A stretch of 64,000 nucleotides of DNA. Source: Octopus sinensis. Lineage: Eukaryota. Shown piece after piece: positions 1 through 64,000 of this stretch; the stretch's first letter is position 1; every line of letters begins with the position of its first letter. The position numbers were made by a program. Location: NCBI RefSeq assembly GCF_006345805.1, contig NC_043019.1, forward strand, positions 2,976,001 through 3,040,000, in the 5' to 3' direction.

Positions 1-2262
1 TAAACTTAACATTTCAAATACCTATCAGATATGTATTAGCATGAACAATATTAGCATTTATTATATTGTAAGCAATTATATGAGGTCTAAAGATCAATAT
101 GGTATTTGCACTTTAAAATGGGCTGCATTCTTTAAGCCAGGGATGTCCAACCTTTTTTTCCTCGTGGGCCAAATTATAAATTTAAGTATATTTACTGCGC
201 CACAAAGGCACTAAGATATAAACTTTTAAAAAGTTCAAAATATAGTGAATAAAATTTTTTTAATAAAAAAATATAAATACAAAATAATGTGCTATTGACA
301 GTAAAAATGAAATTACATTTACACAAAATAAAATCAATGTGATTATTGTCATTGCATTTCTTTTATGATATTCTCAATATCTGCTTTTATGGTGTTATTC
401 TTTACTCTAAGAATATTAGTTAAATGGCAATCACTCAGCCTATTTCTTTCAGCAGTTTTGACGTTTTTCATACATGAAAAGAATTGTTTACAGGAGTATG
501 TACTATCCCACATGCACAACAGTTTTCTAGCTAAATTGGCATACAATTTCTTGTAAAAGTCAAGATGGTCAAGTTCTTAAAGATTCTCTACTTTGAAGCT
601 CAATGAGTTCAAGCTGATACTTGGCTAGTGCTTCCATGTAAATGAATGAAAATGGATCACTCAACAATTGTAGTTCAGTAATTAAGCATCAACATAATGA
701 CTGAGTCTTTGACACAGAGTCAGCCATTCTACATCATAAACCCCATGGCCTCCCTCATTTTACCTTCCTGTATTGAGGTTTTCATTGGTCCATTCAAAAT
801 AGCACACTCCAAGAATAATTTTCTCATCATACATTATCAAAGTAAATGAAAATTTAACTAGAAAATAACACATAGAATTGCCAGCAGGCCACAAAGTGGT
901 CCACGGGTTGGACATCCCTGCTTTAAACCAGTGTCAGCAATATTTGGCAATAGAAAAGCAAACAAAAAATGATTTTTTTTTGTTTTGTTATGAAACAAAG
1001 TAATTCGACATAAGTTCATCAATTGATCAATGGTAGCCATTGCTTGAAGGTTACATAAAGCTTGCGTGAGTTACAAATATGAAAAGCTAATACAATGAAT
1101 TACATAAGATACTAACACATTCCAAAAAATATAACTTAAAATTTAATTTAAATATTGAATAAATATTTTATAAGAATTCTAATCTTGTCTACCCTGTTTT
1201 CTGGGGTTGTTTTGACTTACCTCCATCTGTATCAGGTCCTAAAAACAATAAAAATAAAATACAGTGAGAATAAAATTCATAAGTCTTTATGTATTTAAAA
1301 AAATTAAATGTTTAAAGATATAAACTGAATGTGCAGGTGCTGGAGGTATCTAATTAAGTGGTTTACTGGTGAAGAAAGAAATGATTCAAATTAATGATTG
1401 AATGTATAAAAATAACAGACATACCTGTCAAGAATTTCTTTTATTACTAGAGAGAAGAAAACTTCATTAACTTTTTACAAGAATTTTCTGAAAATGTCTT
1501 AAGTTTTGCATTCTTAAAAGTCACCAAATTTGCTGTTTCACCATCATGAATAGAAAGCAATTAATGAAGATAAAATTAAGAAAGAGAATCAAATGCTGGT
1601 TTTTTTCACATTCAATTGCTTTGCTTTCTGATTCTCTTTAAAACCTCTGTTGTATAATAATTCACTTCCTTTTGTAAAATATGTTTATTTGTATAGATAT
1701 TTTTAATTGAAAATTATGAATAATACTTTTAATTATAAATTAAATAAATAGTTTGTTGAATACAATTACTGAGTATATAATGAACAGTGAATTAGAATAC
1801 ATTTGAAGCTAAATAATTCTTCAATTACAGTTTGAAAATCATTTGATGATCTCTAATTTGCAAAGTAGCAAACTATTTAGGATATCTGATAAATTTCTTA
1901 TTTACTTCTTCCTCTGATTTATTTATTTAATTATTTTACAATTTTTATTTATTTCAGTTCCATTATGCTATTATCAATGTAGTTATGATATAATTTCATT
2001 GAAAATGAAAATATTGAAAAAATATTTAAAATTTAAACTATAAAAATATGAGTAAAGTAAGCGAAAGAAACAAATCTAAATAAAACCACATCAATAGCCC
2101 AATGTCTTACATATATTCATTAAATAGTTAATAATTTTAGAAATTACATCAAATGATTTTTCTGTAGTGTATGTACTACTGATAGAATTAATTCTAAAAA
2201 GCAGTTGGCAAATATTAGAATCTTTCAATAAAATAATATAATTATTAAAAAAACAACTGTCC

Positions 2263-2299
<37 letters not shown>

Positions 2300-60540: not shown

Positions 60541-63500
60541 CATGGAAAGTTAATAATAATAAAAGTGACATTTTTATTATGGAGGAAAAAATTTGTATAT
60601 TTAAGTATTTCTAACTATGCTTTCAGATATAGATTTAGGTTTATGCATTTCCAAATACATTAGAAGTTCTCAGAATAAATCACATTGCTTCTGTTACATG
60701 AGGCATTGTAGGTGAAAGATGATTGTATTAAACTTTGTAGCTCCTTAAAATGAAGCATCCAAGAATAAAATGAAGCACCCAACAATGACAATCACTTAAA
60801 TTCAACACTGGGAACTGGTAATTACTATAATTTGTCATATTCGTCCACTACTCTTTTCTTTTAAAACCTTTGTATCTCAATTTACTTTTACAATAGTTAA
60901 GGCCTTAATAGAGTGCTCGAGAGTAATAATGATATATATGCTTTCAAGCTACATGACACTCATATCTACCCTGTCATGAATCTCCTACAGTTTACCTGGA
61001 AGGTAAGTTCTAATAAAGCTAAATGCCCAATGTGTTAAATAAAAAACAACAGGATAGTAAAATACAATATATTTCATAATAAAACTATAAAATCCCATGA
61101 CCATCGTCATGGGTATAAAGTAATTTACAACCATTACTTGAATGAACAAAATTTCAAGAAAACAAATTTACTGAAATAGTTAATGTGGTCATCACAATCA
61201 CACTAGTTTATATCAGTATTGTTAAATGTTTAAAAAGCAAAAAAAAAAAAAAAAAAAAAAAACTGCTTTTCATAATCTCTAATCAGCCAATTCTTTATCA
61301 ATTTCCATTTACAATTTCTCAAATAAACATGACAGAAACATAAAACAAATTCAAAACTATAACATACAATGTAACATTCACAAACCAAACAAAACAAATG
61401 ACAACAACATTATAATCTCCAATTCTTCAATATGAGTTTTAAATAAAGTTGAAAAAAAATTAATCATAAAAAAAAAAATCATATCCTTTGTTAGAATAAT
61501 AGAACTATTTATTGTTAAACTTTGTTATATTTGGAGTCTAGATATTTATGAGTATATATTTTTATATCATGCACAGTTGTCTGTGATTAACACAATAATT
61601 AAACAATAAATTCCTATGAACATTTTTAAAAACATGCCTTATATAATATTTTAAAATTAAAATTATTTGTTGTCATAGAATATTTCAATATCATGTTTAC
61701 AAATCTTCATTCAAGTCACTATACTATCTGTGGAACATTACCTGCCAGGAGAAAAGTAATTTCATCATTTTATTTAGAGCTGTGCACCCTGTCAGTTATC
61801 ATGCTAACCTTGACTTTGTTCCGAGCTAAATGAAACAAATCATGAAACCATGATTTAATGCGGCACGATATTGCACAAAAGCATCAAATCAGCTGATGCC
61901 ATGAAACCAAAATGTAGGCACTGTTTGAATAACATATTGGCATACAGCCTCATTACAACTCAGTTTGAAAAAAAACCAGAGGATGCTTAGTCAAGTAAAA
62001 GAGAGCAATCACTGACATCTTTAAGACAATCTGAGTGTTCTAAAAATGTTACTCCTGGCTATTTCATCAATTTTATAATAAGCTAGTATATTTAAAAAAT
62101 TTTTTTTGCACTAAAGACAGTGTAAATTTTCATTTGAAACTTGTTTTTATGAAATCTACAGTATGAATTCTAAGTGAAATTGGAATGATTTTCAAAGAAT
62201 ATACAAAAGACCAAGGAAAATATTTGCATTCACAAGAATTGCACCACACTAAGTTAGAAATGGATTATTACAATGTGATCAAATATTGTCATATTAATTA
62301 CTGGCAAAGTATTACAGTACAAGGTAATAGTATCTTAATAATATAGGTTTGAAGGACAACCACTCAACCATATACTACTTGAAAGGAAAATATATCAAAA
62401 GAAAAATACCTCTTGAAAACAAAGGCATTCTAAAAATTCAGAGTAAAGGTGCAAGTGTACTGCTGGAATATACTATCTGAAATTCATGATATTCTTACAA
62501 CTTGCTAACATTGACTCTTTACAAAAGACAAGAGGAATTTTTCCCTTTCAGGAAATCATTGTTCTTACTGAGAGTGATCAGCAAGCCAGTCAAGATACAC
62601 TGGCAAAAATCAAAAGTATTTAGAAGTTCTTGACAATTAAGAGAATGTGGCTCTTGTTTTGATGGATGGAAGACACCTTCAGAAGTATTACTCCTAAAAT
62701 TATTTGTGAGAAAGATACTTCACAAAACACTAAAATATCTTCTACCTATACCAATTGTAAGAAAGTTTCAATGAACAGAATCCATAGACCCTAAAACAGA
62801 CATTAAAAACCGTTAACTGTACTAATTTATACTAATACCTAGGCTAATGTACATGCACTGATACTCTTTTAAGCATCTATAGATTTTTATGTAATAATTG
62901 TAATAAAACCAAAGCCTGAATTCTAGTTTACATGGCTTTATGGTTCATTGTTGGGAAATGTTACAAGATTTCTCTCCAATTCTATTCTATATGTTCTCAG
63001 TCTTCTTACATTTTATTTTTTCCGATACACACAAACATAGCCAGGTAATGTGTCCTGAATCCATAAGAAATTATAGTTTCTACAGTGCCTATTCAGGAGA
63101 GATGCAGCATTGACTATTTCTAAGGATGAACTCTTATTTTATTTATTATTTTAATCCTTATGTATACAATCTGACTAAAATATTACATTACACACCATTG
63201 TTTACTGAATATCAACTGCTGTCATAAGCTTCTTTGCATCCTCAAAAGCAGGAATGTACAGAGTTTTTTTTATATCAATTTACATTCATCACCTGTAAAA
63301 TCATAGCCTTACAGTGAAAATCTTTACAGAACAGCAATTTGCTTTTTTGTGGTGGTATGTGGGGAGATCACTTTCACAGAAATAACAACATGCAAAACCA
63401 TGCAAAACCCCACCATTTATTTGTAAAGCTTTGTATCCATTCTTAAATAATATATATGCCATAAAAATAATGATAACTTTAATATTTATTTATTTATATA

Positions 63501-64000
63501 TTCTCCAGTATTTTGTTTGCAACACTTAATCACTGTATCTCTGTTCTATGTAGACTTTAATTTATAAAATATTAACGTATATCTCATAAAGAAGTTCTCA
63601 AACAATAACAGTACATTAGCAGTAACAATAAGCACAAACAAACACTTATGACAGTAACAATAAAACAATTAGAAAAAAACATACAGATTAAGACAAAATG
63701 ATTAAACATTCAACATGTAAGATTTAAAATATGAAATATCATTTTTGTGTTAGACATATTAGCTATTTTTATCAGGTGCTAATTTCTTACCAGACAAAAT
63801 TTCCACAGGCTCTATAGGAAGTGCAACTGTTAAAATATACATATATTCGTTTGTGAGTTAGAGTAAATATCTTTTGGTGAAGGATATATTTCAAAATAGA
63901 GTGAGCACAATATATGAATGATTATTCTATATTTTATAAAAATGCAATATAAATTAAGTGTAAAGCAATGCAGTATGTTGGTATTTTGCCAAAGAAGACA

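What the first reader, a model, noticed from the sequence alone, without database searches (positions are those of the whole stretch)
1221..63826. Fully modular phase-1 VWA 'bead and spacer' gene with potential for combinatorial splicing
Seen: 10 single-domain VWA exons alternate with 15 microexons of 15-42 nt. Every exon is a multiple of 3, phase 1-1 and ends in G, so each junction codon is G-N-N (Gly/Glu/Val/Ala) and no exon combination can create a frameshift or junction stop. Known: phase 1-1 exons are typical of shuffled extracellular modules, and one-VWA-per-exon occurs in collagen VI alpha3. Unusual: the interdomain spacers sit on their own dedicated microexons, and no collagen or EGF exon accompanies 10 VWA domains. 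Inference: a cephalopod matrix/adhesive protein whose domain number and spacing can be set by splicing. Automated annotation would probably miss the microexons and call it 'collagen alpha-VI-like'.
Basis: partly seen in the sequence, partly recalled or inferred. Interest (0 to 1): 0.8.

Follow-up and report, generated by a model that had tools for sequence, protein, structure and literature searches.

The report
Octopus giant VWA matrix gene, modular exons
This is the middle of an already annotated Octopus gene for a giant bead-and-spacer matrix protein, built so that any bead or spacer exon can be dropped without breaking the reading frame, but nobody has yet shown that the octopus does this.

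Summary
On the minus strand lie 10 VWA-homologous exons and 15 short exons of 15-42 nt. All 25 have AG/GT borders, a length divisible by 3, phase 1-1 and a last base G. Twenty-two of the 25 tile residues 1358-3013 of the Octopus sinensis RefSeq protein XP_036368516.1 (LOC115223644) exactly and without gaps. Two more, V5 and m14, are in the O. bimaculoides RefSeq model. The tenth VWA exon, V1, is a decayed copy found only in a 2015 model.

The gene is cephalopod and matrix-type. Automated annotation did not miss the microexons: 14 of 15 are in the same-species model. The whole protein has EGF domains outside the window (20 VWA and 4 EGF, no collagen helix).

It belongs to a mollusc-wide family of giant VWA-EGF proteins with Pro/Thr-rich linkers. 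In the scallop homologue, RefSeq isoforms differ by exactly one linker each, or by one VWA plus its linker. That gives indirect support for cassette splicing.

No octopus transcript could be examined. I rate this a new variant of a known kind (COL6A3-like one-VWA-per-exon arrays), of moderate interest.

The parts
63791..63826 (-). m1, 36-nt exon (V)ALPIEPVEILS. It is the last unit of the Pro-rich repeat region that lies upstream of the window.
   Evidence: aacag|..G|gtaaga. Exact match at residue 1359 of P0150.
57096..57110 (-). m2, 15-nt exon (V)RTPP
   Evidence: Exact in P0150 and P0145.
53390..53836 (-). V1, a decayed and truncated VWA exon (447 nt if the internal gtgagt donor is used)
   Evidence: Pfam VWA positions 1-137 of 174. 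DxSxS and TDG motifs lost, with stop codons in the homologous continuation. Absent from both RefSeq models and present only in the 2015 model P0001 (146/148).
49861..49902 (-). m3, 42-nt exon (E)PTHTAPKYAFEKF
   Evidence: Exact in P0150.
48390..48959 (-). V2, VWA exon of 570 nt
   Evidence: Pfam E 2.9e-41. Exact in P0150.
47220..47246 (-). m4, 27-nt linker (V)IIPAAAPQ
   Evidence: Exact in P0150.
45623..46192 (-). V3, VWA exon of 570 nt. It has no terminal Cys pair.
   Evidence: Pfam E 1.3e-39. Exact in P0150. Alignment.
39273..39302 (-). m5, 30-nt linker (A)TTEPPTEPT
   Evidence: Exact in P0150 and P0145.
38587..38613 (-). m6, 27-nt linker (V)PTTTPTTT
   Evidence: The exon is 20-23 of 27 identical to m7 and m8, while its flanks are at noise level.
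36808..36834 (-). m7, 27-nt linker (V)ATTIPTTT
33759..33785 (-). m8, 27-nt linker (V)PTTIPTTT
32695..33264 (-). V4, VWA exon of 570 nt. It has no terminal Cys pair.
   Evidence: Pfam E 1.5e-44. Exact in P0150.
30276..30317 (-). m9, 42-nt linker (E)IPTTPPTTPVPTT, with a weak polypyrimidine tract
   Evidence: Exact in P0150 and P0145.
27723..28289 (-). V5, an intact VWA exon of 567 nt and a candidate cassette
   Evidence: Pfam E 2.2e-44. Absent from O. sinensis P0150 and from P0001. Present in O. bimaculoides P0145 (184/188).
27263..27289 (-). m10, 27-nt linker (E)PPTTPAEP
   Evidence: Exact in P0150.
23613..24173 (-). V6, VWA exon of 561 nt. It has no terminal Cys pair.
   Evidence: Pfam E 1.4e-46. 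Exact in P0150.
21503..21535 (-). m11, 33-nt linker (E)PTTTPVITTT
   Evidence: Exact in P0150 and P0145, absent from P0001.
20390..20956 (-). V7, VWA exon of 567 nt
   Evidence: Pfam E 1.3e-44. Exact in P0150.
19599..19628 (-). m12, 30-nt linker (G)MPTRKPRPT
   Evidence: Exact in all four models.
18393..18425 (-). m13, 33-nt linker (E)PPTRPPVSVR
   Evidence: Exact in all four models.
17515..18084 (-). V8, VWA exon of 570 nt with donor G|gtattt
   Evidence: Pfam E 7.5e-45. Donor read. Exact in P0150.
15893..16462 (-). V9, VWA exon of 570 nt, joined to V8 with no linker exon
   Evidence: Pfam E 3.6e-45. Exact in P0150.
11960..11986 (-). m14, 27-nt exon (E)HTPVISSS, a candidate cassette
   Evidence: Consensus sites. 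Absent from O. sinensis P0150, exact in O. bimaculoides P0145.
8219..8794 (-). V10, VWA exon of 576 nt with a DxSxT variant of the metal-site motif
   Evidence: Pfam E 3.2e-35. Exact in P0150. Alignment.
1221..1238 (-). m15, 18-nt exon (G)PDTDG, leading to further VWA exons beyond the window
   Evidence: Exact in P0150 at residue 3009. O. bimaculoides has a diverged sequence in its place.

Best explanation
The window holds about 1,650 codons from the middle of Octopus sinensis LOC115223644. This gene encodes a giant protein of at least 4,624 aa, presumably secreted, of the VWA/EGF extracellular-matrix type.

Shown:
- Nine intact VWA exons and one decayed VWA exon, one domain per exon.
- Fifteen short exons, most of which encode Pro/Thr-rich interdomain linkers.
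- Every exon is symmetric in phase 1-1 and ends in G. Removing any subset therefore keeps the frame. The first residue of each module is fixed by that module's own first two bases, whichever exon precedes it.
- The gene belongs to a family conserved across cephalopods, gastropods and bivalves. The family layout is a long N-terminal VWA array with optional short Pro/Thr linkers, then a mucin-like stretch, then a C-terminal VWA-EGF-VWA-EGF-VWA-EGF-VWA-EGF-VWA block, with no collagen helix.

Inferred:
- The VWA beads act as multivalent binding modules for matrix partners. Eight of the ten keep both DxSxS and TDG.
- The Pro/Thr linkers are extended spacers, probably O-glycosylated.
- At least some exons (V5, m14, individual linkers) are cassette exons, so bead number and spacing vary between isoforms. 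This is what COL6A3 does with whole VWA exons, and what the scallop homologue's RefSeq isoforms do with single linkers.
- V1 is a dead pseudo-exon that is normally skipped.
For: Exon anatomy: all 25 of 25 exons meet every stated rule.

Identity: 22 of 25 exons match P0150 (XP_036368516.1) exactly. They tile its residues 1358-3013 with exactly one junction residue between neighbours.

Domains: 10 of 10 VWA exons pass Pfam.

Whole-protein Pfam scan: 20 VWA and 4 EGF stretches in P0150, and 16 VWA and 3 EGF in P0145.

Family: a profile built from V2-V10 shows the same layout in Pomacea, Batillaria, Mizuhopecten and Pinctada, and the N-terminal array in Argonauta.

Selection on the linkers: m6, m7 and m8 are 20-23 of 27 identical to one another. 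Their intron flanks score 54-62 of 100, against 55.9 +/- 3.9 for unrelated intron pieces.

Cassette behaviour:
- V5 and m14 are intact here with consensus splice sites. They are missing from the O. sinensis model and present in the O. bimaculoides model.
- Of 7 scallop isoforms compared with X11, 6 lack exactly one 18-26-aa Pro/Thr-rich linker that starts right after '...LCP'. The seventh lacks one VWA plus its linker (214 aa).
- Pomacea isoforms X10 and X11 differ by a 14-aa linker.

Precedent: COL6A3 domains N2-N10 are encoded by one exon each, and N3, N5, N7, N9 and N10 are alternatively spliced (passages of PMC7319802).
Against: No octopus transcript was seen.
- LOC115223644 has a single RefSeq protein with no isoform label.
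- The four unnamed short fragments in the same clusters read through the splice donors, so they are genomic ORFs and not cDNA.
- Differences between gene models may be prediction noise.
- RefSeq isoforms of the scallop and the snail are themselves computed models.
- In Mya arenaria the isoforms differ by roughly 93-aa PKD-like modules, not by VWA domains or linkers.

Secretion is not shown. The N-terminus of the octopus models is incomplete and no signal peptide was examined. Binding partners, glycosylation and tissue of expression are untested.
Confidence: 0.7

Rival explanations
1. The modules are constitutive. All intact exons are always included. The uniform phase 1-1 and G-ending pattern is only the footprint of repeated tandem exon duplication plus the ordinary donor consensus. 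Differences between gene models are annotation noise.
For: There is one RefSeq protein for the locus with no isoform label. The VWA copies are old paralogues, 28-58% identical to one another, so the shared phase can be inherited. The preference for G at the last exon base is general (my recall).
Against: V5 and m14 are intact with good splice sites yet are left out of the same-species model. The scallop and Pomacea homologues have annotated isoforms that differ by exactly these module types. COL6A3 offers a precedent.
Confidence: 0.25
2. V1 is a live alternative first exon. Transcription starts just upstream of it, and the in-frame Met at 53891 with the hydrophobic stretch that follows serves as a signal peptide for a shorter isoform. 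The 2015 model P0001 is built this way.
For: P0001 starts there, and its first 167 residues are 97.6% identical to the window. The stretch MYVCILICN..LSALFL is hydrophobic.
Against: The hydrophobic stretch is the translated polypyrimidine tract ahead of a good AG acceptor. V1 has lost DxSxS and TDG and stops early. It would give only 137 of 174 profile positions. Both RefSeq models skip it.
Confidence: 0.08
3. It is an ordinary collagen VI or matrilin orthologue that was cut by the window.
[quoted passage not shown] The C-terminal part alternates VWA and EGF domains, as matrilins do.
Against: Neither full model gave a Pfam hit to a collagen triple helix, a Kunitz domain or a matrilin coiled coil. 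Vertebrate collagen VI hits do carry PF01391 in the same searches. The protein has at least 20 VWA domains.
Confidence: 0.03

Closest known systems
Collagen VI alpha-3 (COL6A3) N-terminal VWA array
   Same: It has a tandem array of about 10 VWA domains, one domain per exon, and whole VWA exons are skipped in frame in some isoforms (passages of PMC7319802). It is the best match among solved structures (9han_C).
   Different: The octopus protein has no triple helix, no Kunitz domain and no FN3 domain. Its linkers sit on their own short exons rather than inside the VWA exons. The statement about COL6A3 linkers is my recall and was not tested. The octopus protein also has EGF domains and a Pro-rich repeat region.
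Scallop LOC110464458 and the other giant mollusc VWA-EGF proteins (Pomacea, Batillaria, Pinctada, Argonauta models)
   Same: They share the overall layout, the Pro/Thr-rich linkers directly after '...CP', and the C-terminal VWA-EGF block. The scallop isoforms differ by single linkers or by one VWA plus its linker.
   Different: They are only 38-48% identical. The number of beads and the linker sequences differ. The 13-aa Pro-rich repeat region was seen only in the two Octopus models. No paper naming these loci was found.
Matrilins
   Same: VWA domains combined with EGF domains, in an extracellular matrix adaptor role. Relatives are often auto-named 'cartilage matrix protein'.
   Different: Matrilins have one or two VWA domains and a C-terminal coiled coil (recalled). 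Here there are at least 20 VWA domains, single EGF domains between VWA domains, an acidic tail, and no coiled-coil hit.
Mussel proximal thread matrix protein 1 (PTMP1)
   Same: It is a mollusc extracellular VWA protein and the second-best solved match (4cn8_A, E 4.7e-41 over 2 stretches).
   Different: PTMP1 has two VWA domains in a 454-residue chain. It has no long array, no EGF domains and no linker exons.
Titin PEVK region (analogy only, recalled)
   Same: It has many short, frame-symmetric exons that encode Pro-rich unstructured spacer units, and these are included in variable numbers to set length and elasticity. The octopus region is 27% P, 12% V, 7% E and 6% K with a 13-aa period.
   Different: Titin is intracellular and unrelated in sequence. 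No Pfam hit links the two. Variable inclusion is not shown for octopus.

Membership tests
VWA domain (Pfam PF00092) | Profile match above the curated cut-off | tested here: met
   10 of 10 exons match, at 75.9-159.3 bits against a cut-off of 23.8. V1 covers only profile positions 1-137 of 174.
VWA domain (Pfam PF00092) | Metal-site motifs DxSxS and TDG. The motif names are recalled; the residues were read from the alignment. | tested here: met
   8 of 10 have both motifs. V10 has DxSxT plus TDG. V1 has lost both.
Collagen VI | Gly-X-Y triple-helical domain (PF01391) | tested here: not met
   No PF01391 hit at E<=0.001 in P0150 or P0145, and none in the window's ORFs. Caveat: the N-termini of the public models are incomplete.
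Collagen VI | alpha-3-type C-terminal Kunitz domain (PF00014) | tested here: not met
   No hit. Vertebrate hits list PF00014.
Collagen VI | N-terminal array with one VWA domain per exon | tested here: met
   The COL6A3 side comes from passages of PMC7319802.
Matrilin | VWA domains joined by EGF domains | tested here: met
   Met only outside the window. P0150 has 4 single EGF domains between its last 5 VWA domains.
Matrilin | C-terminal coiled-coil oligomerisation domain (recalled feature) | tested here: not met
   No such Pfam family among the hits. The tail is a 46-aa acidic stretch. No dedicated coiled-coil predictor was run.
Giant mollusc VWA-EGF proteins (unnamed family) | A long VWA array with short Pro/Thr linkers, then a mucin-like stretch, then a C-terminal block of alternating VWA and EGF domains | tested here: met
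   The full layout, with five VWA and four EGF in the C-terminal block, is in 4 of the 7 proteins mapped: O. sinensis, Mizuhopecten, Pomacea and Pinctada. It is cut short in O. bimaculoides and Batillaria. Argonauta shows the array part only.
Giant mollusc VWA-EGF proteins (unnamed family) | Linkers and VWA exons used as cassettes | not testable with these tools
   Seen in computed RefSeq isoforms of the scallop and Pomacea. No octopus transcript data were available.
Titin-type PEVK spring | Homology to PEVK/PPAK repeats | tested here: not met
   No Pfam hit. Only composition and periodicity are alike, so this is an analogy and not membership.

The most novel reading that the evidence does not exclude
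Molluscs share a family of giant extracellular VWA-EGF proteins in which beads and spacers are 'context-free' cassette exons. Every exon is in phase 1-1 and every upstream exon ends in G, so a module's sequence never depends on its neighbour. Splicing then tunes bead number, bead spacing and the length of a PEVK-like spring, tissue by tissue. This would be an extracellular counterpart of titin. In octopus it could help set the mechanics of boneless connective tissue in the arm, sucker or skin.
Probability: 0.25. Interest if true: 0.6.

Novelty: new variant of a known kind. Interest (0 to 1): 0.4.

Why it matters
If the cassette reading is right, one gene could produce a graded series of matrix proteins that differ in valency (number of VWA beads) and in reach (linker and spring length). 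That would be a simple, testable way to tune tissue mechanics in animals without a rigid skeleton.

The reading also defines a conserved but undescribed family of mollusc matrix proteins, which automatic naming now scatters under 'collagen VI-like', 'cartilage matrix protein' and 'uncharacterized'.

If the exons turn out to be constitutive, this is an ordinary product of exon duplication in a gene that is already annotated.

Tried and rejected
1. Transcript evidence from the protein collection. The four unnamed short members of the two clusters (P0147, P0148, P0151, P0152) continue past the splice donors into intron, so they are genomic ORFs and say nothing about splicing.

2. Literature. Searches for five octopus identifiers and five identifiers of the mollusc homologues found 0 papers. 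Three keyword searches listed nothing on this family.
- Passages of an octopus skin-mucus proteome name 'collagen alpha-3 and 4', 'cartilage matrix proteins' and 'VWFA domain-containing protein' without accessions (PMC11431876). Its supplementary tables are closed, so I could not see whether this protein is among them.
- Passages of PMC9712504, bioRxiv 10.1101/2021.07.10.451900 and PMC11291548 concern other VWA proteins.

3. Mya arenaria isoforms. They differ by 279-560-aa blocks of roughly 93-aa PKD-like modules, not by VWA domains or linkers. They do not bear on the VWA question.

4. Recent duplication of the linker exons. The flanks of m6, m7 and m8 are no more alike than random intron. The copies are therefore old, and only the exon is kept.

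5. Other gene content. There were no tRNA genes and no Rfam family. Five of six other minus-strand ORFs tested had no Pfam hit.

6. Further phase-1-1, G-ending candidates that are not Pro/Thr-rich (for example 51335-51306 and 14916-14875) are in none of the four gene models. I took them as chance.

7. I did not build or search a joined spliced model from the window's exons. Exons were translated, searched and compared one at a time. The only spliced sequences used as queries were the public models P0001 and P0145.

8. No structure prediction, complex prediction, atlas search or representative search was run, because family assignment did not need them.

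
Full report
**What is in the window**

The window is AT-rich, with GC of 0.25-0.38 in 2-kb steps. A stop-to-stop ORF scan listed 19 frames of at least 120 aa. Ten of them, all on the minus strand, read like VWA domains. tblastn with the ten peptides found exactly ten VWA-like loci, all on the minus strand, and nothing else. 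All ten pass Pfam PF00092, with E values from 5.9e-21 to 1.4e-46.

Each frame is bounded by a pyrimidine-rich AG acceptor that leaves two leading bases, and by a G|GT donor that leaves one trailing base. The exons are 447, 570, 570, 570, 567, 561, 567, 570, 570 and 576 nt long.

**The short exons**

A scan for AG...GT segments that are open in phase 1-1 gave 1,618 raw candidates of 9-63 nt. Forty-nine of these had a good pyrimidine tract and donor. The true m1 acceptor and the fifteenth exon, m9, which has weak pyrimidine tracts, were found through public gene models.

All 25 of 25 exons have AG and GT borders, a length divisible by 3 and a last base G. The junction codons are GNN, coding Gly, Glu, Val or Ala.

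The Pro/Thr-rich exons are far more frequent than chance. Twelve candidates met all criteria in the gene's strand and phase. The other two phases gave 2 and 0, the opposite strand gave 0/0/0, and 20 shuffles gave a mean of 0.2 with a maximum of 1.

**Identity of the gene**

One exon (V6), searched against longer proteins, found an O. bimaculoides model (P0001, 98% identical). Cluster look-up then gave two RefSeq proteins:
- XP_036368516.1, 'uncharacterized protein LOC115223644' of Octopus sinensis (P0150, 4,624 aa)
- XP_052831912.1, 'collagen alpha-3(VI) chain' of O. bimaculoides (P0145, 3,736 aa)

I compared the exons with these proteins one at a time. Twenty-two of the 25 exon peptides occur exactly in P0150. 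They appear in order, with one junction residue between neighbours, and they tile residues 1358-3013. The window is therefore O. sinensis, or a genome identical to it at this locus.

The three exons not in P0150 are V1, V5 and m14. V5 (184/188) and m14 (8/8) are in the O. bimaculoides RefSeq model. V1 is only in the 2015 model P0001 (146/148).

I made no joined model of my own. The only spliced queries were the public proteins P0001 and P0145.

**V1 is a dead copy**

V1 matches only profile positions 1-137 of 174. It reads DSASIS where the other copies have DSSTS, and LLNNQS where they have ITDGxSN. Its frame reaches a stop at 'KPSE*'. The homologous continuation carries a second in-frame stop.

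The 447-nt 'exon' exists only if an internal gtgagt is used as a donor. The count is therefore nine intact bead exons plus one decayed exon.

**The other nine beads**

The intact beads are old paralogues. Across all ten copies pairwise identity is 28-58%. Eight keep both DxSxS and TDG, and V10 has DxSxT. Six of the ten copies (V2, V5, V7, V8, V9, V10) carry a Cys near each end. V3, V4 and V6 carry neither.

**The linkers are kept by selection**

The three 27-nt exons m6, m7 and m8 are 20-23 of 27 identical to one another. Their intron flanks align at 54-62 of 100, which is no better than unrelated intron pieces at 55.9 +/- 3.9. Linker peptides also persist between the two Octopus species.

**The whole gene**

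Pfam finds 20 VWA and 4 EGF stretches in P0150, and 16 VWA and 3 EGF in P0145. No collagen triple helix, Kunitz domain or matrilin coiled coil appears among the hits.

Upstream of the window, P0150 has five nearly identical VWA domains. Their linkers differ by zero, one or two copies of a 15-aa unit. A 392-aa region follows, made of 13-aa units of the type VELTTAAPPPVIP and VEKTTAPPAPVKP, with 27% P, 12% V, 7% E and 6% K. The window's m1 is its last unit.

Downstream come more VWA beads, then an 88-aa TTPRR-type mucin-like stretch, then VWA-EGF-VWA-EGF-VWA-EGF-VWA-EGF-VWA, then an acidic tail.

So 'no EGF exon' is true of the window only. The flanks are matrilin-like in part, but the protein is neither a matrilin nor a collagen VI.

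**Family**

The closest solved structures are COL6A3 (9han_C, E 2.5e-116 over five stretches) and mussel PTMP1 (4cn8_A, E 4.7e-41).

A search with the window's part of P0145 found giant relatives at 38-48% identity in Argonauta, Batillaria, Babylonia, Pinctada, Solemya, Mizuhopecten, Pomacea and others. None of these carries PF01391, whereas the vertebrate collagen VI chains listed lower down do.

I mapped domains with a profile built from V2-V10. The same layout appears in Pomacea, Batillaria, Mizuhopecten and Pinctada, including the C-terminal VWA-EGF block. In Argonauta and Batillaria, otherwise near-identical beads are joined either directly or through a 13-aa linker.

**Is there cassette splicing?**

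There is no direct evidence for octopus. The locus has one RefSeq protein, and the short unnamed fragments in its clusters are genomic read-throughs.

The indirect evidence is as follows:
- V5 and m14 are intact here with consensus splice sites. The same-species model omits them and the sister-species model includes them. The 2015 model omits V5, m9, m11 and one of m6-m8.
- In scallop LOC110464458, seven RefSeq isoforms were compared with isoform X11. Six lack exactly one linker of 18-26 aa, each at a different VWA junction. Each such linker begins with G or V right after '...LCP', and the residue that follows is V. The seventh isoform lacks one VWA plus its linker (214 aa).
- Pomacea isoforms X10 and X11 differ by a 14-aa Thr/Pro linker.
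- COL6A3 skips whole single-exon VWA domains (passages of PMC7319802).

Against this:
- RefSeq isoforms are computed.
- In Mya arenaria the variable modules are PKD-like rather than VWA.
- Pecten X1 and X2 differ only at the N-terminus.
- Ruditapes X25 and X26 differ near the N-terminus.

**How it most likely works**

Shown: the gene has a frame-neutral, context-free modular design, and it belongs to a conserved mollusc family of VWA-EGF matrix proteins.

Inferred:
- The product is a secreted beads-on-a-string protein.
- The beads bind matrix partners through their metal sites.
- The Thr/Pro linkers act as stiff, probably O-glycosylated spacers.
- The 13-aa repeat region acts as a flexible extension.
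- Some beads and spacers are optional.

The 'ends in G' rule is mostly the ordinary donor preference (my recall). It is not strict across species. The junction residue after V6 is Lys in O. bimaculoides, which implies a last base A there. A stop would still be impossible in that case.

**Novelty and verdict**

The gene and 14 of its 15 short exons are already in RefSeq, so the prediction that annotation would miss them fails. I found no paper on the locus or its mollusc homologues, and none on this family in three keyword searches.

One VWA domain per phase-1-1 exon with exon skipping is known from COL6A3. The variant features here are dedicated linker exons that look individually optional, and a PEVK-like exon array in an extracellular protein.

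I rate it a new variant of a known kind, with interest 0.4.

The supplementary tables of the octopus skin-mucus proteome (PMC11431876) could show whether the protein is made there.

Noticed in passing
window 352-576 (-): A 75-aa open frame in the intron between V10 and m15 weakly matches the hAT transposase C-terminal dimerisation domain (PF05699, E 6.9e-4, 19.8 bits, below the 21.4 cut-off). It is probably a transposon remnant.
   Followed up: partly
window 8058-8218 (-): The first 162 nt of the intron after V10 stay open in frame to a stop. Their translation is 54 of 54 identical to the C-terminal tail of the unnamed model P0029, whose exons otherwise match O. bimaculoides. V10 itself is the best-conserved bead (189/191). 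This could be an alternative read-through 3' end, or simply low local divergence.
   Followed up: no
window about 9790-10490, 34050-34390, 49955-50370, 51100-51380 and 60170-60460: Long TA/TG/CA-type simple repeats give 'IYIYIY' and 'CVCV' open frames on both strands. They are intronic microsatellites.
   Followed up: no
window 24000-26000 and 40000-42000: These are intronic patches with raised GC (0.376 and 0.340) and strong positive GC skew (+0.31 and +0.29). On the minus strand they give Ser/Pro/Leu/His-rich open frames such as 24779-25237. The two frames tested, 25321-25620 and 40395-40733, have no Pfam hit. They are probably repeat elements.
   Followed up: partly
outside the window: P0150 residues 1-996 and 997-1388: The same gene starts with five nearly identical VWA beads. 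Their linkers differ by 0, 1 or 2 copies of a 15-aa unit (VVEKTPAPAITLPTK). A 392-aa region of 13-aa Pro-rich repeats follows. The bead copies may be recent duplications, collapsed or expanded assembly, or optional exons.
   Followed up: partly
P0145 (O. bimaculoides) at the V6/m11 junction: The junction residue is Lys where this window gives Glu. The last base of V6 is therefore A rather than G in that species, and the G-ending rule is not universal.
   Followed up: partly
P0153 (Argonauta hians, 4,971 aa): This model holds 26 VWA beads, most of them nearly identical in length. They are joined either by a single Gly or by the 14-aa GKPQITTLPTRSHG: 11 junctions have the longer form and 14 do not. 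It may be a very recent bead expansion or an assembly or annotation artefact.
   Followed up: no
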